This document shows positions 26,181-37,908 of a stretch of 43,601 nucleotides of DNA, in pieces. A model generated the notes under the pieces. The model was given only the letters and a program-made list of their open reading frames with translations. It was not told the origin of the DNA and searched no databases. A program made the position numbers and the translations under genes. Within the stretch, counting starts at the first letter, position 1. Every line of letters begins with the position of its first letter. The DNA is from a virus (taxonomy: Duplodnaviria > Heunggongvirae > Uroviricota > Caudoviricetes). The stretch covers positions 1 through 43,601 of IMG/VR virus record IMGVR_UViG_3300045988_013455; one strand, 5' to 3'.

Positions 26181-26210
26181 AGAAAAAGGCCCCTTACGGG
26201 GCCTTAACTT
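26181..26210. terminator. Bidirectional rho-independent terminator
   Basis: AAGGCCCC-ttac-GGGGCCTT flanked by A-run and T-rich sequence. Confidence 0.7.
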
Positions 26211-26502
26211 TCCAGACTTCTCGAAGCGCTACGAGTTTATGATTACCAATATCTCTTGATATTATTGAGTCAGTAAAACCATTGAACCACGATTTCATCC
26301 AGTCAGACGTTCTGAAATCAGCGTACAGAATATGTATCGTTTGCGGAGCGTCGACGTCGTAATGTTGGCACACATAAACGCATCCGCTGGCGAATATAAT
26401 AGCTTTAAACGTATCGTAATCTTCTGAATCCGGGAACTCGCTAGAATCCCCGACAAGATATCTGTACGCGTATTTTTTAGTAGTCTTCTTTCTTTTCCGC
26501 AT
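26194..26502 (-). CDS. Hypothetical protein (102 aa), antisense cassette A
   Basis: Third gene of a leftward cassette inside the late operon. Confidence 0.45.
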   Translation of the reverse strand: MRKRKKTTKKYAYRYLVGDSSEFPDSEDYDTFKAIIFASGCVYVCQHYDVDAPQTIHILYADFRTSDWMKSWFNGFTDSIISRDIGNHKLVALREVWKVKAP

Positions 26503-26511
26503 GGTGATTTC

Positions 26512-26742
26512 TCAGAAGTGTATTACTGGTTGTTTAAACTTCCAGTCACAATCTACCTGTTTAATCACACCTTTCGCAACAAGACTGTCTATAAATTCCG
26601 GACCTGAATTTGTCTTGTACCATGTGTATCTGTTCCCAACTTTTACGCCCGGAAGGCTGTGGTACACAACGCCATCAACCACCATAAAAGATACGCCGAT
26701 AGCCCCTTTTTCTGCATAGAGTTTTTTAGTCCCACCGCTCAT
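26512..26742 (-). CDS. Hypothetical protein (76 aa), antisense cassette A
   Basis: Second gene of the leftward cassette. Confidence 0.45.
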   Translation of the reverse strand: MSGGTKKLYAEKGAIGVSFMVVDGVVYHSLPGVKVGNRYTWYKTNSGPEFIDSLVAKGVIKQVDCDWKFKQPVIHF

Positions 26743-26779
26743 AGTACACCCAGATTAAATAATTATTAATATAAGGCCC

Positions 26780-26965
26780 TTAGGCCTTACGAATTGTATA
26801 TTCATACCCGAGGTAGCCGTTTTTCTCTTGCATAGCGGAGGCACGCAGCAGAGCAGCATTCTCACCTTTAACTACAGCGACCACATAATCCGTAGAGTCT
26901 GGGCCATTTTCCACAACTTCATACGCCTGTAAGTTCTTGGTGGTAAGTTCATATGTGTTAGTCAT
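26780..26965 (-). CDS. Hypothetical protein (61 aa), antisense cassette A
   Basis: First gene after promoter; conserved leader AAACGAGAGATAAGGAA before ATG. Confidence 0.45.
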   Translation of the reverse strand: MTNTYELTTKNLQAYEVVENGPDSTDYVVAVVKGENAALLRASAMQEKNGYLGYEYTIRKA

Positions 26966-26998: not shown

Positions 26999-27027
26999 AA
27001 TAGTACCCTATTATATTGGTGTCTGCA
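26999..27027 (-). promoter_or_regulatory. Sigma70-like promoter (TTGCAG-17-TACTAT) driving antisense cassette A
   Basis: Minus strand TTGCAGacaccaatataatagggTACTATtcac then conserved leader. Confidence 0.55.
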
Positions 27028-27072
27028 AATATTATTTTTATGCGTTACACTGTCAATACTACAGGAGGGCCT

Positions 27073-28116
27073 ATGAGCTTACTTACATCACTAATCAGCC
27101 ACCAGATATGGCTGCAACGCACCGCTTCCGGTGAAGTGAAAGACCTCGCGCCGTTCATTCAGGAGATGCGGGACGAAATCAAACGGCAGGTTCTGCTATT
27201 CGGCGACGACGGTCGTAGCACAGCGCGACTGAATAAACTGTTACGCGACCTCGAAGAAGCACTGGCGGGACTTACTGGTGACTGGCATACAAAGCTGACC
27301 GAAGACCTTAAGGAGCTGGCGGCGTATGAGGCTGAGTGGAATACAAAGACACTGACAGCTAACGTTAACGCGGAATTTGTTACGCCTACCGCTGAACAGG
27401 TGTGGGCCGCTGCGGAGTTTCAACCCTTATCATTGAATGACAAGCCGGTCGATTTCACCAAGCTGATGGATGACTGGGGTGAAACAGAAGTCGCGCGCCT
27501 TGTAACGGGCGTTAAGATGGGATTTGTGCAAGGCCAGACGACACGGCAGATTGTTAAGAATGTTGTTGGTGCTGGGGGCCTTGCGGACATCTCTGAGCGT
27601 AACGCTGCGACGGTAATCCGCACCGCGCTGTCCCACGTATCCAACGAAGCCCGTAACGAAACGTACCGTCAGAACGACGACATCATCAAGAAATACGAAT
27701 GGGTGTCAACGCTGGACAGCCGTACCAGTACGATTTGCAGAGCCAGGGACGGGATGACGTGGGAAATCGGTAAAGGTCCGATGCCCCCAGCCCATCCGAA
27801 TTGCAGAAGCACCACGGCCCCGGTAATCAGTTCGGAGTTCGACTTCCTCAATAAAGGCGCAAAACGCGCGGCTAAGGGCGCGGACGGAGGTACTCAGGTA
27901 AGCGCAGACACCACCTATTACGAGTTCCTTAAACAACAACCGGCGTGGTTTATTGATGAGGCTCTTGGACCTGTTCGCGGTAAGATTTTCCGTAACAGCG
28001 GTATATCGCCGGAAGAGTTTCGCGTAATATCTGTAGATGGTTTCGGGAATCCGCTCACGCTTAAGCAGATGGCGGAACTCGATAAACGTGTTGCTGATTA
28101 TCTGAAAGGGGAATAA
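27073..28116 (+). CDS. Head morphogenesis protein (Mu gpF / SPP1 gp7 family minor capsid protein)
   Basis: WVSTLDSRTSTICRARDG...PMPPAHPNCRSTTAPV matches the Phage_Mu_F signature; ATG at 27073 after AGGAGGG (track ORF from 27016). Confidence 0.75.
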   Translation: MSLLTSLISHQIWLQRTASGEVKDLAPFIQEMRDEIKRQVLLFGDDGRSTARLNKLLRDLEEALAGLTGDWHTKLTEDLKELAAYEAEWNTKTLTANVNAEFVTPTAEQVWAAAEFQPLSLNDKPVDFTKLMDDWGETEVARLVTGVKMGFVQGQTTRQIVKNVVGAGGLADISERNAATVIRTALSHVSNEARNETYRQNDDIIKKYEWVSTLDSRTSTICRARDGMTWEIGKGPMPPAHPNCRSTTAPVISSEFDFLNKGAKRAAKGADGGTQVSADTTYYEFLKQQPAWFIDEALGPVRGKIFRNSGISPEEFRVISVDGFGNPLTLKQMAELDKRVADYLKGE

Positions 28117-28577
28117 TGATGGGCTTTTTCAAAGTAACTGATGTACCGTCGCGTCGCGTAGTCCAGTACGCCCGTGTGTCTGGCTCTGGCGAGAACGTGG
28201 TATTTATTGAAAATGAAAGTGTACTCGGTACACCAGTAGACGATATGCCGTTTGCTGATAAAACCGGTATTGCACTACCGGCGGCGGGTATGCTTTATGA
28301 AATTCCGTATCTGGCTGATGCTGGCGACGTGTATTTCTCTGCGCAACCGAAAGACGCTGAACTGGCAGACGGCAGCGCGACCATCACTGTCGAGGTTAAG
28401 GCTGGCAAAGCACCATATGCGTTGACCTGGTACAAAGACGGTAAGGAAGTAGTAAACGCCCCGGAAGAGGCCTTGTCTCTGACGGTTAACGCAGTCGGTG
28501 AATACTTCGTTAAGGTTACTGATGCTGATGGGGTAGAGGCCGTGAGTAAAGCGGCGAAGGTAGTTAAGCCAGAATGA
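28116..28577 (+). CDS. Ig-like domain protein (possible virion decoration/accessory protein)
   Basis: C-terminal TITVEVKAGKAPYALTWYKDGKEV...GEYFVKVTDADG resembles an Ig-like (Big/I-set) domain. Confidence 0.45.
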   Translation: MMGFFKVTDVPSRRVVQYARVSGSGENVVFIENESVLGTPVDDMPFADKTGIALPAAGMLYEIPYLADAGDVYFSAQPKDAELADGSATITVEVKAGKAPYALTWYKDGKEVVNAPEEALSLTVNAVGEYFVKVTDADGVEAVSKAAKVVKPE

Positions 28578-28610
28578 TAAAAGGCCCCGTTATGGGGCCT
28601 TAGTTTTATT
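28578..28610. terminator. Bidirectional rho-independent terminator
   Basis: AGGCCCC-gttat-GGGGCCT followed by TAGTTTTATT; A-rich on the other side. Confidence 0.7.
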
Positions 28611-28818
28611 CATGTGTCGCTGCTCTAAAATTAAGTTCTTCACGAGGGATAAACCCCCTATCAGTTTTTACATAACAAGTTGTGTAACTATACATTACCT
28701 CTCTGCCCGTGATATCTCCGTAGTTCTCACACCCGTGTTCATCTAAGCTACGTACACCGGCAGCAATTACCAGTGAAAATGCCAATGTCATCAATACCGA
28801 GATAATTAATTCTTTCAT
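28606..28818 (-). CDS. Small secreted/periplasmic protein (70 aa), antisense cassette B
   Basis: N-terminal signal-like MKELIISVLMTLAFSLVIAAG, two Cys in the mature part; own promoter and terminator. Confidence 0.5.
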   Translation of the reverse strand: MKELIISVLMTLAFSLVIAAGVRSLDEHGCENYGDITGREVMYSYTTCYVKTDRGFIPREELNFRAATHE

Positions 28819-28853
28819 CTTTAAGTTCCTTATCTCTCGTTTCGATGCAATGA

Positions 28854-28882
28854 ATAGTACCCTATTATATTGGTGCCTGCAA
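28854..28882 (-). promoter_or_regulatory. Sigma70-like promoter (TTGCAG-17-TACTAT) driving antisense cassette B
   Basis: Minus strand TTGCAGgcaccaatataatagggTACTATtcat then AAACGAGAGATAAGGAA. Confidence 0.55.
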
Positions 28883-28933
28883 ACTATTTAGCTATGTATT
28901 CCAGTTATTCCCTCAATTGTAAATGTTGGAATA

Positions 28934-28949
28934 AACTATTCGAATAGTT
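28934..28949. repeat. Perfect 16-bp palindrome AACTATTCGAATAGTT overlapping the -35 of the rightward promoter
   Basis: Self-complementary; half-site ACTATTC recurs in most phage promoters of this genome. Confidence 0.7.
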
Positions 28950-28976
28950 GACTTTTCACTAAAAATGTGCTAAGCT
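28948..28976 (+). promoter_or_regulatory. Sigma70-like promoter (TTGACT-17-TAAGCT, TG-extended)
   Basis: TTGACTtttcactaaaaatgTGcTAAGCT; transcribes an ORF-poor 200-nt segment ending at a hairpin. Confidence 0.5.
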
Positions 28977-28982
28977 CCACCT

Positions 28983-29180
28983 GAGCTTGTGAAGTATGAA
29001 CAAGCGACCGCGGCGCGGGCAGGTAACGGAGCTGGACGTAAGTCCTGAGTGTAGTTACGCTGACGCGTTCGGAAGGGCCATACTCTATTGCTTGTGTAAA
29101 AAGTAACTGGTTTACTGAGATTATGCCGTTTCTATGTTTAAATGATAAGGACTAGCGCCCCGCTTTAAGGCGGGGCTTTA
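28983..29180 (+). ncRNA. Candidate small RNA / structured leader (promoter-to-terminator unit without substantial ORF)
   Basis: About 200 nt between promoter and GCCCCGC-tttaag-GCGGGGC hairpin; only a 36-codon ORF with poor RBS. Confidence 0.25.
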
Positions 29181-29200
29181 CTTATCGAGAAAGGAGAAAC

Positions 29201-29587
29201 ATGAATCTTAAAGCAACTGTCGTAGCAGGAGCATGTTTCACCATCCTGGTCTACGCACACGGCATCTATCAGTACCGCAGCGGCTGGAACGAAGGCCGGG
29301 TGAATCTCGTTTCACAGCAACAGCAGAAAGCACAGGCTGAGTTAGCGAAGAAAACACAACGGCAGCAGCAGGATGAATCGAAGGCCGCAGCAGCCGACAA
29401 CGAAGGCAAGACGAAATCAGAGGTGATTACCCGTGAAGTCGTTAAGTACATTAGAACGCCTGGCCGCAGCGTGTGCACTTTTGACCCTGAGCGCGTGCAG
29501 CTCAAGTCCCGCGCCGTCGCCAACGCCAATTCCATACCCGGATACGACGATGATGCAGCCGCCGTGCAAACTGGCCGCACCAAGTAG
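29201..29587 (+). CDS. Rz-like inner-membrane spanin (i-spanin)
   Basis: N-terminal TMD ATVVAGACFTILVYA, Gln/Lys-rich coiled-coil region; RBS AAGGAGAAA. Confidence 0.6.
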   Translation: MNLKATVVAGACFTILVYAHGIYQYRSGWNEGRVNLVSQQQQKAQAELAKKTQRQQQDESKAAAADNEGKTKSEVITREVVKYIRTPGRSVCTFDPERVQLKSRAVANANSIPGYDDDAAAVQTGRTK

Positions 29588-29696
29588 CGACGCGGACGAG
29601 GATTTAGCTATTGACGTTCAGAACGCCGAATGCGTGCGGCAACTGCGTCTGAAAGTGTTTATGTTGCAGGACTACGTGAGGAATATTCTGGAATAG
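29433..29696 (+). CDS. Rz1-like outer-membrane lipoprotein spanin (o-spanin), embedded in +1 frame of Rz
   Basis: Lipobox LTLSAC followed by Pro-rich SSSPAPSPTPIPYP; starts inside Rz and extends past it. Confidence 0.6.
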   Translation: MKSLSTLERLAAACALLTLSACSSSPAPSPTPIPYPDTTMMQPPCKLAAPSSDADEDLAIDVQNAECVRQLRLKVFMLQDYVRNILE

Positions 29697-36303: not shown

Positions 36304-36493
36304 TGTTAACTCTCTTAAATCTGGCTATGCCTGACTCGTTAATGTTGCCTATTTCAAAGAAGCTGCGATATTTAGGCGAATACATTCTTACGTCGCCATT
36401 CTCCAGGGTGATCCCTTCATATATGGCCCCTACTTCGAATCCATTTTTCTCCGCGTACGGGCTCACATCGGTGCATTCATACATATCTTTCAT
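36293..36493 (-). CDS. Hypothetical protein (66 aa), antisense cassette C
   Basis: ATGA overlap with the upstream phosphoesterase gene. Confidence 0.45.
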   Translation of the reverse strand: MKDMYECTDVSPYAEKNGFEVGAIYEGITLENGDVRMYSPKYRSFFEIGNINESGIARFKRVNSDK

Positions 36494-37620
36494 CCAAGCA
36501 TCTCCGGTGAAATAGTTAAACGTGCTACCTCGCCATATTCGGCGCTATAAGTGATTACATTCGCACTACGGCCCGACATCCAACCCCCGCGGGAGGCGTA
36601 GGCGTCTTTAGCCGCTAAGGTGCGGTGTTGCTCAACAATCATGTTACGGCTTTCCACAATCTTCTGATGGTGCAGATGGCCTACGTGGGCGTAACTGTAA
36701 ACACTCTCGCCGAACGCTTTACGGAACTTGGCGATCATAACCGGTTCGATAGCGTCGAATCGTGCTTTATGCCCGTGTGTAAAGAACAACGTCGTTTTGC
36801 CGTGTTGCACCATCTTGTAAACATCCGGCGACGTATCGACGAACACACGCGGCTCATTGCCATACAGCGTACTGAACATCTCAGCCAACCAAATCATGCC
36901 ACTCTCGTCGTGGTTACCTTGCACAATAAGCAAGCGAACAGTTTTATGCTTAACCAGCGCCATATCGACAACACGGCGGACCATGCGAATCATGTAGCGG
37001 ACAAGTTTCTGGTAGCGGGTATCGGCGTCAAGAACGTGACCACTTGCGGGTGTAACCGCGTCCAGACTATCGAAGTGCGCAAGGTCGCCCAGCAGGTTAA
37101 TAACTCCTGTTCCCGCGTCCGGTGATTTCTGAAACGCTGCGTCGAACCAGCGAGAGAACAGGTCTTCTGCAATCTTCATATCCCAGTCGTCGCCGCTCTC
37201 GTCAGCCCATGCCAGCATACCGAGATGGAAATCAGATACAGTGTAAAGATTAAGTAGCTTGTCGTCGCGTTTGGCACGTGCCGCTTTAACAGGCGCAACC
37301 GGGGTAATCTCTGACTTCATGCCTTCGATTACGGCTTTCATCAATTCAACCTGACGTTCGGCGTCAGTATCGGTCTTAACCCATTGCAACTTAGTGTTGC
37401 CGAACTCATCGACAAGTGACGACGTTCCTTTAATCTTGTAGCCGTCCGGAACAAGGTGACTAACGTCACGCCCGTGGCCTACGCCTTTCTTAGCCAGCTT
37501 CGCTTTACGGATACGAATAACGCGGTCTGAGATGCCGTATTTACGGGCGATGTCGATATTCTTCATACCGGCGTTCAATTCTTCCTGCAACTGTTCGTCG
37601 GTTATTTTCTTCTGGGCCAT
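36490..37620 (-). CDS. HTH domain fused to calcineurin-like metallophosphoesterase (SbcD/Mre11-like motif set)
   Basis: N-terminal HTH-like NIDIARKYGISDRVIRIRK; motifs VSDFHLG, LLGDLAHFD, VQGNHDE, FTHGH, HVGHLHH in canonical order. Confidence 0.6.
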   Translation of the reverse strand: MAQKKITDEQLQEELNAGMKNIDIARKYGISDRVIRIRKAKLAKKGVGHGRDVSHLVPDGYKIKGTSSLVDEFGNTKLQWVKTDTDAERQVELMKAVIEGMKSEITPVAPVKAARAKRDDKLLNLYTVSDFHLGMLAWADESGDDWDMKIAEDLFSRWFDAAFQKSPDAGTGVINLLGDLAHFDSLDAVTPASGHVLDADTRYQKLVRYMIRMVRRVVDMALVKHKTVRLLIVQGNHDESGMIWLAEMFSTLYGNEPRVFVDTSPDVYKMVQHGKTTLFFTHGHKARFDAIEPVMIAKFRKAFGESVYSYAHVGHLHHQKIVESRNMIVEQHRTLAAKDAYASRGGWMSGRSANVITYSAEYGEVARLTISPEMLG

Positions 37621-37657: not shown

Positions 37658-37864
37658 TCACTTCTCGTTAACATTCGAGTTGCACGCCCAGATTAAAATA
37701 AAGACCCACGGCAACAGAATCCAACCAAGAAACAGATTGGCCATGAATATCGCCAACTTCGCTTTATGGTCACGGAAATACGCAACCAGAAAAGGTGCGA
37801 AATAGGCGAGTAGTGCAAACAGAATTAAGGAAACTGGTAAACTGGACATTTTAAACTCCTTCAT
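37658..37864 (-). CDS. Small two-TMD membrane protein (68 aa), antisense cassette C
   Basis: SLPVSLILFALLAYFAPFLVAYF and IFMANLFLGWILLPWVFILIWA; first gene after promoter. Confidence 0.5.
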   Translation of the reverse strand: MKEFKMSSLPVSLILFALLAYFAPFLVAYFRDHKAKLAIFMANLFLGWILLPWVFILIWACNSNVNEK

Positions 37865-37879: not shown

Positions 37880-37908
37880 ATAGTACCCTATTATATTGGG
37901 GCGCGCAA
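37880..37908 (-). promoter_or_regulatory. Sigma70-like promoter (TTGCGC-17-TACTAT) driving antisense cassette C
   Basis: Minus strand TTGCGCgccccaatataatagggTACTATtcac, same module as at 26999 and 28854. Confidence 0.5.

What the first reader, a model, noticed from the sequence alone, without database searches (positions are those of the whole stretch)
28578..28882. Antisense cassette B: single secreted small protein, candidate superinfection-exclusion factor
A 70-aa protein with a signal-peptide-like N-terminus and two Cys is encoded leftward with its own early-type promoter and terminator inside the head region. Small periplasmic or lipoprotein genes in this arrangement are known to block receptors in other siphoviruses (Cor of T1/phi80, Llp of T5).
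Basis: inference. Interest (0 to 1): 0.45.

Follow-up and report, generated by a model that had tools for sequence, protein, structure and literature searches.

The report
Swappable phage cassette encoding membrane-anchored mini-protein
The flagged stretch is a real, self-contained add-on gene cassette in a Kagunavirus-like phage. It encodes a 70-residue protein that is probably anchored in the inner membrane with a small disulfide-bonded domain in the periplasm, from a widespread phage family whose function is unknown, and it is not a Cor/Llp-type receptor-blocking lipoprotein.

Summary
ORF 28606-28818 (-) encodes 70 aa, with a Shine-Dalgarno site, a promoter-like module and a strong hairpin terminator. 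It lies between the Hoc-like head-decoration gene and Rz/Rz1 of a Kagunavirus-like (Guernseyvirinae) phage.

It is a classic moron in a hypervariable slot. In about 40 relatives the flanks are nearly invariant, while the slot holds at least 12 unrelated cargoes or is empty (7 loci). The ORF has 39% GC against 50.5% for the genome. The promoter 13-mer occurs exactly three times in the window. One of the other copies drives a T4 Imm-family superinfection-immunity gene.

The protein belongs to an uncharacterised, phage-borne family of at least 116 clusters at 50% identity. Members have one N-terminal transmembrane helix followed by a roughly 45-aa domain with the motif C-x2-Y-x3-TGRE…C-Y-V-K…W/F-I-P-x2-E. 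Both cysteines are essentially invariant, and the single sequence that lacks one has a new cysteine elsewhere. AlphaFold2 gives pLDDT 93. No PDB, Pfam, NCBIfam or PADLOC relative was found.

The most likely topology is a signal anchor, N-in/C-out, rather than a freely secreted protein or a lipoprotein. The function is untested. My best guess (about 0.3) is that it blocks genome entry at the inner membrane and periplasm. The Cor/Llp mechanism is not supported.

The parts
28581..28601 (.). Hairpin terminator (AAGGCCCC-loop-GGGGCCTT). It is shared by the convergent Hoc-like gene (+) and the cassette (-).
   Evidence: -17 kcal/mol, z = -5.06, 0 of 200 shuffles fold as well. It is followed by UUUUAU on the minus strand and UUAGUUUU on the plus strand. 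It is conserved in relatives, in two allelic forms.
28606..28818 (-). Cargo ORF, 70 aa plus TAA stop. It is a member of an uncharacterised phage family (PHROG 26710/18961/27356).
   Evidence: GC is 39.4% against 50.5% for the genome, the 1.2nd percentile of 213-nt windows.
28753..28809 (-). Codons 4-22: hydrophobic helix, predicted inner-membrane signal anchor (possibly a signal peptide).
   Evidence: the KD19 (best 19-residue Kyte-Doolittle hydropathy window) family mean is 2.7, and the uncharged run has a median of 23 residues. AF2 helix spans residues 2-37. K/R bias favours N-in.
28609..28752 (-). Codons 23-70: predicted periplasmic mini-domain (helix extension, three beta-strands, C-terminal helix) with conserved C30 (28729-28731), T37-G-R-E40, C48 (28675-28677), Y49-V-K51, F56-I-P58 and E61.
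   Evidence: C30 in 120/121 and C48 in 121/121 sequences; P0009 has C30->G and a new Cys at position 59; pLDDT 93.1; coordinates.
28827..28831 (-). Shine-Dalgarno AAGGA, 8 nt upstream of the ATG.
   Evidence: The leader ATCGAAACGAGAGATAAGGAAyTTArArATG is shared almost base for base with cassette A.
28851..28883 (-). Promoter module TTTGCAGGCACCAATATAATAGGGTACTATTCA. TATAAT lies at 28869-28864. The alternative TTTGCA (28883-28878)-18 nt-TACTAT (28859-28854) is also possible.
   Evidence: three exact copies of the 13-mer core in the window. It is conserved in relatives that carry different cargo and absent from empty-slot relatives.
28884..28896 (-). Variable junction between the cassette and the conserved backbone.
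   Evidence: sequence differs between cargo types. In empty-slot relatives the backbone joins the terminator directly here.
28897..28911 (-). Backbone 15-mer GGAATAACTGGAATA, the last conserved bases before the insertion point.
   Evidence: The same 15-mer precedes the homologous cassette in Enterobacter phage phiEap-2, where an inverted copy follows the terminator.
37883..37895 (-). Third copy of the promoter core. It drives a 68-aa Imm_superinfect (PF14373) gene at 37661-37864 (-) and an SbcD-like exonuclease at 36493-37620 (-).
   Evidence: PF14373: E = 2e-12, 47.2 bits against a cut-off of 27.9.
27003..27015 (-). Second copy of the promoter core (cassette A). It drives three small leftward ORFs within 26197-26965.

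Best explanation
**Shown.** The region from about 28578 to 28896 is a moron: a horizontally exchanged unit of promoter, leader, ORF and terminator. It sits in a fixed accessory-gene slot of Guernseyvirinae phages, between the Hoc-like head-decoration gene and a conserved ~305-bp leader in front of Rz/Rz1. Its cargo is one member of a widespread, phage-borne family of 67-110-aa proteins. Each has one N-terminal transmembrane helix and a ~45-residue alpha/beta mini-domain with two invariant cysteines.

**Inferred, fairly secure (about 0.8).** The helix is a signal anchor with N-in/C-out topology. The mini-domain therefore sits in the periplasm, tethered to the inner membrane and stabilised by a C30-C48 disulfide. 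The gene is transcribed by host RNA polymerase, independently of the late head operon, from a promoter type that this phage also uses for its Imm-like gene and an exonuclease gene. It is therefore probably made early.

**Inferred, speculative (about 0.3; this is the mechanism I commit to).** The conserved face of the periplasmic domain (Y33, T37-G-R-E40, Y43, K51, W/F56-P58, E61) binds a conserved inner-membrane or periplasmic component at the site of genome entry. This makes the already infected cell refractory to DNA injection by later-arriving phages. That is exclusion at the inner membrane and periplasm in the manner of T4 Imm/Sp or HK97 gp15, not receptor masking at the outer membrane in the manner of Cor/Llp.
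For: Moron and slot:
- Flanks are nearly invariant in about 40 relatives, while the cargo is replaced by at least 12 unrelated ORF sets. The distance from promoter to Rz is constant at about 326 bp.
- Seven relatives have an empty site lacking both promoter and ORF.
- The ORF has 39.4% GC against 50.5% for the genome.
- The terminator has z = -5.06.
- Only EC3-1 (96% aa) and phiEap-2 (47%, same slot) among 348 related GenBank phages carry this cargo.

Family:
- 116 clusters at 50% identity match at E <= 1e-3. All are small stand-alone proteins.
- PHROG 26710 matches 114 of 121 members.
- Homologues lie in early or replication regions of Dhillonvirus and of Acinetobacter T4-like phages, between regA and gene 43.
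- BLAST found no match in 5,426 complete E. coli genomes or 72,556 plasmids; a narrow motif scan of 185,579 species' genomes gave only seven hits judged to be chance.

Topology and disulfide:
- C30 is present in 120/121 and C48 in 121/121 sequences. The lone exception moved the partner Cys to position 59.
- K/R residues are enriched in the N-tail relative to the TM-to-Cys linker: 58 greater, 38 equal, 25 fewer. For N-tails of at least 10 aa: 24 greater, 6 equal, 3 fewer, with means of 2.61 and 0.88.
- The hydrophobic run has a median of 23 residues.
- AF2 gives pLDDT 93.1: helix 2-37, strands 41-44/47-52/55-58, helix 59-68.

Function hints:
- The identical promoter core drives a PF14373 Imm_superinfect gene in the same genome.
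- Another cargo of the same slot (Golestan) is a lipobox lipoprotein plus a 33-aa TM peptide, so envelope-acting cargo recurs here.
- Precedent from the literature: HK97 gp15, a small inner-membrane protein encoded by a moron inside a structural operon, blocks genome entry (PMC3594210). T4 Imm and Sp act on DNA injection (PMC11436027).
Against: - No member of the family has any experimental characterisation.
- No sequence or fold similarity to Imm, Sp, SieA/B, gp15/YebO, Cor or Llp was found.
- The slot is function-agnostic. Relatives carry a DNA methyltransferase, an endonuclease VII-like protein, a clamp/RusA-like protein and acidic cytoplasmic proteins there.
- The family occurs in sipho-, myo- and podoviruses with unrelated injection machinery, and on hosts from Enterobacteria to Acinetobacter and Pseudomonas. 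This argues for a conserved host target and fits host-envelope takeover as well as exclusion.
- Promoter timing is not measured, and the generic sigma-70 scan did not score this promoter.
- Charge bias is ambiguous for the window protein itself: N-tail MKE, linker RSLDEHG.
- Two of three 2-TM family variants have acidic inter-TM loops, which would formally predict C-in.
- I could not read the model coordinates, so the C30-C48 distance is unverified.
Confidence: 0.35

Rival explanations
1. Host-envelope takeover or counter-defence effector. The tethered periplasmic domain binds a conserved host envelope machine, such as the divisome or peptidoglycan synthesis, an envelope-stress sensor, a periplasmic protease, or a membrane-embedded defence system. 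It inhibits that machine early in infection for the benefit of the resident phage, not to exclude other phages.
For: - The family spans phages with unrelated tails and hosts from Enterobacteria to Acinetobacter and Pseudomonas, while the motif stays strongly conserved. This suggests a conserved host target.
- Homologues sit among early replication and host-takeover genes.
- The slot elsewhere carries counter-defence-type cargo such as a DNA methyltransferase.
- Precedent: SPO1 gp56, a 79-aa N-in/C-out bitopic protein of a virulent phage, blocks division through DivIC/FtsL (bioRxiv 10.1101/2020.02.06.938217).
Against: There is no similarity to gp56 or to any known inhibitor. No target could be identified, and no conserved neighbouring gene exists. 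PADLOC and anti-defence annotation are silent.
Confidence: 0.25
2. Lysis-timing regulator. The protein acts as an antiholin-like or holin/spanin-accessory factor, with its periplasmic domain modulating the phage's own lysis proteins, by analogy with T4 RI binding the periplasmic domain of holin T.
For: The architecture (N-terminal TM or SAR-like helix plus a small periplasmic domain) resembles RI (from my own knowledge of T4). The cassette lies next to Rz/Rz1.
Against: - It is transcribed from the opposite strand to Rz/Rz1, and most relatives carry unrelated cargo or nothing at this site, so adjacency to Rz looks incidental.
- Homologues in other phages lie in replication regions, not lysis cassettes.
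- No fold match to any PDB chain was found.
Confidence: 0.08
3. One reading: a secreted protein or lipoprotein that masks the outer-membrane receptor, as Cor (T1/phi80/N15) and Llp (T5) do with FhuA.
For: It is a small exported protein on its own promoter in a siphovirus. Another allele of this slot (Golestan) really is a lipobox lipoprotein.
Against: - There is no lipobox. The first Cys is residue 30, seven residues past the hydrophobic segment and preceded by D-E-H-G. Only 1 of 122 family members has a plausible lipobox.
- A protein tethered to the inner membrane with about 45 periplasmic residues cannot obviously reach an outer-membrane receptor.
- No similarity to annotated exclusion families was found.
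- Kagunaviruses are reported to depend on O-antigen or capsule glycans (PMC11990801).
Confidence: 0.04
4. The ORF is a non-functional remnant or chance ORF, and the cassette is a decaying insertion.
For: It is rare among close relatives: 2 of 348 GenBank genomes with this locus.
Against: The family-wide conserved motif, an intact SD, promoter and terminator, the high-confidence fold, and 73-96% identical copies in several independent contigs with core residues invariant.
Confidence: 0.02

Closest known systems
HK97 gp15 moron (YebO-like inner-membrane superinfection-exclusion protein)
   Same: Both are small membrane proteins encoded by an autonomous promoter-gene-terminator unit inserted between structural genes. 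Both show atypical GC and presence/absence polymorphism between related phages. gp15 acts at the inner membrane on genome entry without touching the receptor (PMC3594210).
   Different: There is no sequence relation: no Pfam or PHROG hit to YebO/gp15. HK97 is temperate and gp15 is expressed from the prophage, whereas this phage group is virulent (my assignment for Guernseyvirinae, not established by a tool here) and the family was not found in bacterial genomes. The function here is untested.
T4 Imm (PF14373) and Sp (spackle)
   Same: These are early genes of a virulent phage that encode small envelope proteins protecting the infected cell from secondary DNA injection (PMC11436027). This genome has a true Imm-family gene under the same promoter core, so the 70-aa protein could play an Sp-like second role.
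Cor (phi80/N15/T1) and Llp (T5) receptor-blocking lipoproteins
   Same: They are small exported proteins of siphoviruses that are expressed independently of the structural genes.
   Different: Those are outer-membrane lipoproteins that inactivate FhuA (PMC3594210, PMC11436027). This protein has no lipobox, is predicted to be anchored in the inner membrane, and shows no detectable similarity.
SPO1 gp56
   Same: It is a 79-aa N-in/C-out bitopic protein of a virulent phage whose short extracytoplasmic tail is essential. It is a model for how such a mini-protein can disable a host envelope machine (bioRxiv 10.1101/2020.02.06.938217).
   Different: It comes from a Gram-positive host, has no sequence similarity, and its target (DivIC/FtsL) is known. 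No target is known here.
PHROG families 26710, 18961, 27356, 37489 and 9067 (all 'unknown function')
   Same: This protein is a sequence member: E = 1.7e-11 to 3e-7, and 114 of 121 family representatives hit phrog_26710. GenBank homologues are annotated 'hypothetical protein'.
   Different: Nothing differs. These are the same family, and they carry no functional information.

Membership tests
Moron (Juhala/Hendrix sense) | Own promoter | tested here: inconclusive
   A conserved promoter module with a perfect TATAAT is repeated exactly three times in the window, and is absent from empty-slot relatives. It was not called by the generic -35/-10 scan, and no transcript data exist.
Moron (Juhala/Hendrix sense) | Own terminator | tested here: met
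   Hairpin 28581-28601 plus a U-run, -17 kcal/mol, z = -5.06.
Moron (Juhala/Hendrix sense) | Extra DNA relative to related genomes, with atypical composition | tested here: met
   7 empty sites and at least 12 alternative cargoes in about 40 relatives. GC is 39.4% against 50.5%, the 1.2nd percentile.
Cor / Llp receptor-blocking lipoproteins | Lipoprotein signal peptide with a lipobox Cys | tested here: not met
   The first Cys is residue 30, after D-E-H-G. No [LVI][ASTVI][GAS]C motif lies at the end of the hydrophobic segment. 1 of 122 family members has a plausible lipobox.
Cor / Llp receptor-blocking lipoproteins | Sequence or fold similarity to Cor or Llp | tested here: not met
   There are no Pfam or NCBIfam hits at E <= 1. 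All PHROG hits are to 'unknown function' families. No PDB match was found. I did not verify that each library contains Cor or Llp models.
Cor / Llp receptor-blocking lipoproteins | Blocks an outer-membrane protein receptor used by the phage | not testable with these tools
   Kagunaviruses are reported to depend on surface glycans (PMC11990801).
T4 Imm (Pfam PF14373 Imm_superinfect) | Match to the PF14373 profile above the gathering score | tested here: not met
   No hit for the 70-aa protein or any of 121 family members. By contrast, window ORF 37661-37864 (-) does match (47.2 bits against 27.9).
HK97 gp15 / YebO | Sequence similarity to YebO-family proteins | tested here: not met
   No Pfam hit at E <= 1.
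HK97 gp15 / YebO | Small inner-membrane protein from a moron inside a structural operon | tested here: met
   One predicted TM helix, 70 aa, located between head genes. Membrane location is predicted, not shown.
Cleavable Sec signal peptide (secreted soluble protein) | Short h-region (about 7-15 residues) followed by a polar c-region with small residues at -3/-1 | tested here: inconclusive
   In this protein the h-region is 19 residues with I-A-A at 18-20 and no polar c-region. The family median is 23 residues, N-extensions reach 31 residues, and the AF2 helix is continuous over 2-37. This favours a signal anchor, but no SignalP-type predictor was available.
Uncharacterised phage family (PHROG 26710 and relatives) | Profile match and shared architecture (TM helix plus the C…TGRE…CYVK…[WF]IP..E domain) | tested here: met
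   E = 1.7e-11 to phrog_26710. The motif and both Cys are conserved. BFVD structural matches to family members have TM-scores of 0.70-0.94.

The most novel reading that the evidence does not exclude
The 70-aa protein is the first flagged representative of a widespread, wholly uncharacterised class of phage effectors. These would be inner-membrane-tethered, disulfide-locked periplasmic mini-domains with no solved structural relative. They would bind one conserved envelope component of Gammaproteobacteria and so define a new mechanism of superinfection exclusion or envelope takeover, shared by siphoviruses, T4-like myoviruses and podoviruses.
Probability: 0.35. Interest if true: 0.6.

Novelty: new member of a known kind. 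Interest (0 to 1): 0.38.

Why it matters
If the protein does block genome entry or disable a conserved envelope machine, it would add a new and very compact (~45-residue) periplasmic effector fold to the short list of characterised phage envelope effectors. Its conserved TGRE/CYVK surface would point to a host component important for phage DNA entry or envelope homeostasis in Enterobacteria, Acinetobacter and Pseudomonas.

In practical terms, the Hoc-Rz slot, with its portable promoter and terminator, is a natural, well-tolerated site for inserting payloads into Kagunavirus chassis phages, which are already used for synthetic biology (PMC11990801). Exclusion genes also matter when designing phage cocktails.

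As it stands, this is one more well-defined "hypothetical protein" family, so the value is as a lead rather than a discovery.

Tried and rejected
- **Profile libraries.** Pfam, NCBIfam and PADLOC scans of the protein, and Pfam on all 121 family members, gave nothing. The only hits were scattered TM-helix noise such as SurA_N.
- **PDB sequence-profile search.** It returned only TM/coiled-coil noise. A weak (E = 0.28) match to the MotB TM-plus-plug segment is not evidence, and the family lacks the conserved TM Asp of MotB/TolR/ExbD.
- **First AF2 run.** With 6 close sequences it was poor (pLDDT 67). It was superseded by the 121-sequence run.
- **Word-indexed protein searches.** They found only close relatives, with no names.
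- **The search for related loci with family alignments.** It failed because no stretch was conserved enough.
- **Degenerate-motif DNA scan.** In 185,579 species' genomes it gave 7 hits, which I judged to be chance. The motif covers only about 9% of family clusters, so this negative is weak. The same motif in IMG/VR returned only 4 loci.
- **Search for a conserved partner gene.** None was found next to family members in five contexts.
- **Lipoprotein reading.** Rejected; see the membership test.
- **Sigma-54 reading of TTGCA/GGCAC in the promoter.** Rejected by eye because the order and spacing are wrong.
- **Literature.** Searches found no study of this family or of Guernseyvirinae transcription.
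- **Rfam.** Nothing in the window at gathering thresholds, and nothing credible in 28850-29230 at E <= 1.
Full report
**What the window is.** A 1.8-kb stretch around the finding matches 348 GenBank phages. Nearly all are Kagunavirus or Jerseyvirus-type siphoviruses of Escherichia and Salmonella (Guernseyvirinae), and the best match is Escherichia phage EC3-1 at 93%. The local gene order is: portal; a leftward three-ORF island ("cassette A", 26197-26965); Mu-F-like head-morphogenesis protein (27016-28116); Hoc-like head decoration (28116-28577); the finding; Rz/Rz1 spanins (29201-29587, with Rz1 embedded and ending at 29696); scaffold; and major capsid protein.

- ORF 28606-28818 (-) starts with ATG and encodes 70 aa. 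The SD AAGGA lies 8 nt upstream.
- Residues 4-22 are uninterrupted hydrophobic residues. The only cysteines are C30 and C48.
- The hairpin 28581-28601 folds at -17 kcal/mol (z = -5.06; 0 of 200 shuffles do as well) and is followed by UUUUAU. It also reads as a terminator for the convergent Hoc-like gene.
- Upstream lies TTTGCAGGCACCAATATAATAGGGTACTATTCA (28883-28851). The generic sigma-70 scan did not score it, because the TATAAT has no good -35. The alternative TTTGCA-18-TACTAT scores 8/12.
- Its 13-mer core TATAATAGGGTAC is present exactly three times in 43.6 kb, always on the minus strand in front of a leftward island: 27003-27015, 28857-28869 and 37883-37895. Cassettes A and B share the sequence almost base for base from TTTGCAG down to the ATG.
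- "Own promoter" is therefore well supported as a repeated functional module. "Early" is an inference.

**It is a moron in a hypervariable slot.**
- I aligned the window with EC3-1, Bas74 and Golestan. About 370 bp, from the Rz start to the end of the promoter module, is nearly identical. The terminator and the end of the Hoc-like gene are also conserved. The ORF between them is completely different.
- I then surveyed 38 IMG/VR relatives plus these genomes. The distance from the promoter module to Rz is constant at 325-327 bp in nearly all loci that carry the module.
- The cargo falls into at least 12 unrelated types:
  - this 70-aa protein (window, EC3-1, L021);
  - a 67-aa acidic protein;
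  - a 114-aa lipobox lipoprotein plus a 33-aa TM peptide, or the 33-aa peptide alone;
  - proteins of 57, 81, 83 and 94/106 aa;
  - a 92 + 62 aa pair;
  - a 173-aa RusA/clamp-like protein;
  - a 141/179-aa endonuclease VII-like protein;
  - a 242-aa N6/N4 DNA methyltransferase.
- Seven relatives have an empty site. In these the backbone 15-mer GGAATAACTGGAATA (window 28911-28897) runs straight into the terminator, with neither promoter module nor ORF. The mobile unit is therefore promoter + leader + ORF, about 28578-28896.
- The ORF has 39.4% GC against 50.5% for the window, the 1.2nd percentile of same-size windows.
- These are the defining properties of morons as described for HK97/HK022 (PMC3594210).
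- The more distant Guernseyvirinae phage phiEap-2 carries a 47%-identical homologue in the same slot. It sits behind the same 15-mer but has a different promoter, and an inverted copy of the 15-mer follows its terminator.

**The protein family.**
- Word-indexed searches found only 73-87% identical proteins.
- A full HMMER search of 1.84 billion representatives found 116 clusters at E <= 1e-3, all 67-110 aa.
- tblastn against GenBank phages found homologues in Dhillonvirus, in the early/replication region between a homing endonuclease and Dcm/Dam methylases. It also found them in 57 Acinetobacter T4-like phages, between regA and DNA polymerase gene 43, and in Pseudomonas phage AF.
- BFVD structure matches add Salmonella phage 9NA, Titan-X and Proteus phage Saba.
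- Every annotation is "hypothetical". Five PHROGs cover the family, all of unknown function.
- Pfam, NCBIfam, PADLOC and PDB sequence profiles give nothing.
- No match was found in 5,426 complete E. coli genomes by blastn or in 72,556 plasmids by tblastn.
- A degenerate-motif scan of 185,579 species' genomes gave 7 hits, which I judged to be chance. That motif represents only about 9% of family clusters, so absence from prophages is suggested but not shown.

**Architecture.**
- All 122 sequences have a strongly hydrophobic segment. The best 19-residue Kyte-Doolittle window has a mean of 2.7, and the uncharged run has a median of 23 residues.
- This is followed, after a 0-37-residue linker (median 4), by the motif C-x2-Y-[GS]-x-[VI]-T-G-R-E-[TV]-x-[YF]-x3-5-C-[YF]-V-K-T-x2-G-[WF]-[IV]-P-x2-E, often ending in R-A-x-T-N-E.
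- C48 is invariant (121/121) and C30 is present in 120/121. The single exception (P0009) has Gly at position 30 and a new Cys at the position of R59. This is the behaviour expected of a structural disulfide.
- K/R residues are more frequent in the N-tail than in the TM-to-Cys linker: 58 greater, 38 equal, 25 fewer. For the 33 members with N-tails of at least 10 residues the counts are 24, 6 and 3, with means of 2.61 and 0.88. This is the positive-inside signature of N-in/C-out.
- With the 121-sequence alignment, AF2 gives pLDDT 93.1. The model has one helix over residues 2-37 (TM helix continuing into the soluble part and carrying C30), strands 41-44, 47-52 (carrying C48) and 55-58, and a helix over 59-68.
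- I conclude, with about 0.8 confidence, that it is an inner-membrane signal-anchor protein displaying a disulfide-locked ~45-residue domain in the periplasm.
- Caveats: the window protein's own flanking charges are uninformative. I-A-A at residues 18-20 could be an SPase I site. Two of three 2-TM variants have acidic loops. I could not measure the Cys-Cys distance in the model.

**What it does.** Nothing here is demonstrated. Three observations favour an envelope-level protective role:
1. The third copy of the promoter core drives a 68-aa PF14373 Imm_superinfect protein (47.2 bits against a cut-off of 27.9) followed by an SbcD-like exonuclease. These functions are early in T4-type phages.
2. 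Envelope-located cargo recurs in this slot, as in the Golestan lipoprotein plus TM peptide.
3. There are precedents. HK97 gp15 is a small inner-membrane protein from a moron within a structural operon and blocks genome entry without touching the receptor (PMC3594210). T4 Imm and Sp interfere with DNA injection (PMC11436027).

Several points count against treating this as established. The slot is function-agnostic (methylase, endonuclease and acidic proteins). The family is shared by phages with unrelated injection devices, which points to a conserved host target and fits host-takeover models equally well. One such model is SPO1 gp56, a 79-aa N-in/C-out protein that blocks division (bioRxiv 10.1101/2020.02.06.938217). 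No partner gene is conserved next to family members.

My allocation is:

| Explanation | Confidence |
|---|---|
| Inner-membrane/periplasmic exclusion of genome entry | ~0.3-0.35 |
| Other envelope takeover or counter-defence | ~0.25 |
| Lysis-timing control | ~0.08 |
| Cor/Llp-type receptor masking | ~0.04 |
| Non-functional ORF | ~0.02 |
| Something not considered | remainder |

The anatomy was read correctly from sequence alone. The mechanism needs correcting. The protein is not a lipoprotein: there is no lipobox, and only 1 of 122 family members has a plausible one. It is probably not released from the membrane. It has no relation to Cor or Llp. Kagunaviruses are reported to rely on O-antigen or capsule glycans (PMC11990801), so FhuA-style receptor masking is an unlikely model. 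The Cor/Llp idea would fit the Golestan allele of the slot better than this one.

**Novelty and score.** The ORF is already annotated as a hypothetical protein in EC3-1, and the family already exists as PHROGs. Morons and small envelope proteins are a known kind. What is new is the definition of the family's architecture, the disulfide and topology argument, the confident fold with no solved relative, and the description of the Hoc-Rz slot with its portable promoter. That makes it a solid lead among many phage "dark-matter" families, not a surprise. Interest: 0.38.

Noticed in passing
window 28897-29200 (+ strand): A ~305-bp non-coding spacer between the moron and Rz is more conserved than the flanking genes. 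65% of columns are invariant across 38 distinct relatives, its length is 305-309 nt in all but one relative (296), and it is kept even in empty-slot genomes. On the + strand it has TTGACT-17 nt (with TG)-TAAGCT at 28948-28976, overlapped by a perfect 16-bp palindrome AACTATTCGAATAGTT (28934-28949). A ~215-nt leader follows, with hairpins showing compensatory changes (GGAC/GTCC <-> GTGC/GCAC; GCCCCGC/GCGGGGC <-> GCCCTGC/GCAGGGC). It ends in a terminator (29157-29176 + TTTACTTAT) just before the Rz RBS. The layout resembles lambda pR'-6S RNA-tR' (an antitermination-controlled late leader) or an sRNA. There is no Rfam match. RNAalifold found only 2 covarying pairs.
   Followed up: partly
window 28996-29106 (+): A 36-aa ORF inside that spacer is annotated as a gene in Bas74 (Bas74_0007). 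The compensating single-base indels within this stretch in L011 and L034 should put it out of frame (I did not translate it), so it is probably not coding.
   Followed up: partly
window 37661-37864 (-), promoter core 37883-37895: A 68-aa protein of the T4 Imm superinfection-immunity family (PF14373, E = 2e-12; phrog_1039 'immunity to superinfection') lies in the tail-gene region. It sits under the same promoter core as the finding and is followed leftward by an SbcD-like exonuclease at 36493-37620.
   Followed up: partly
window 26197-26965 (-), promoter core 27003-27015: Cassette A consists of three small leftward ORFs (61, 76 and 102 aa) between the portal and head-morphogenesis genes. Its promoter and leader are almost identical to those of cassette B. 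Only the first ORF has a PHROG (16707, unknown function). GC is 42%.
   Followed up: partly
L003 2174-2616 (Golestan), also L038 and L033: An alternative cargo of the same slot is a 114-aa protein with a clear lipobox (LSGC) and a C-terminal hydrophobic segment (phrog_13472, unknown function), plus a 33-aa TM peptide. This is a better candidate for a Cor/Llp-like lipoprotein than the flagged gene.
   Followed up: partly
L004 3427-3441 and 3745-3759 (phiEap-2): In phiEap-2 the homologous cassette is bracketed by GGAATAACTGGAATA and its exact inverted copy TATTCCAGTTATTCC. Further GGAATA-type repeats lie upstream. These may be recombination or regulator-binding sites that define the slot. The window has only one copy of the 15-mer.
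   Followed up: no
L017, L018 and L022-L044 (slot cargo in relatives): The same slot carries a 242-aa N6/N4 DNA methyltransferase in some relatives and a 173-aa RusA/clamp-like protein in many others. The slot therefore also hosts likely anti-restriction or DNA-metabolism accessories.
   Followed up: partly
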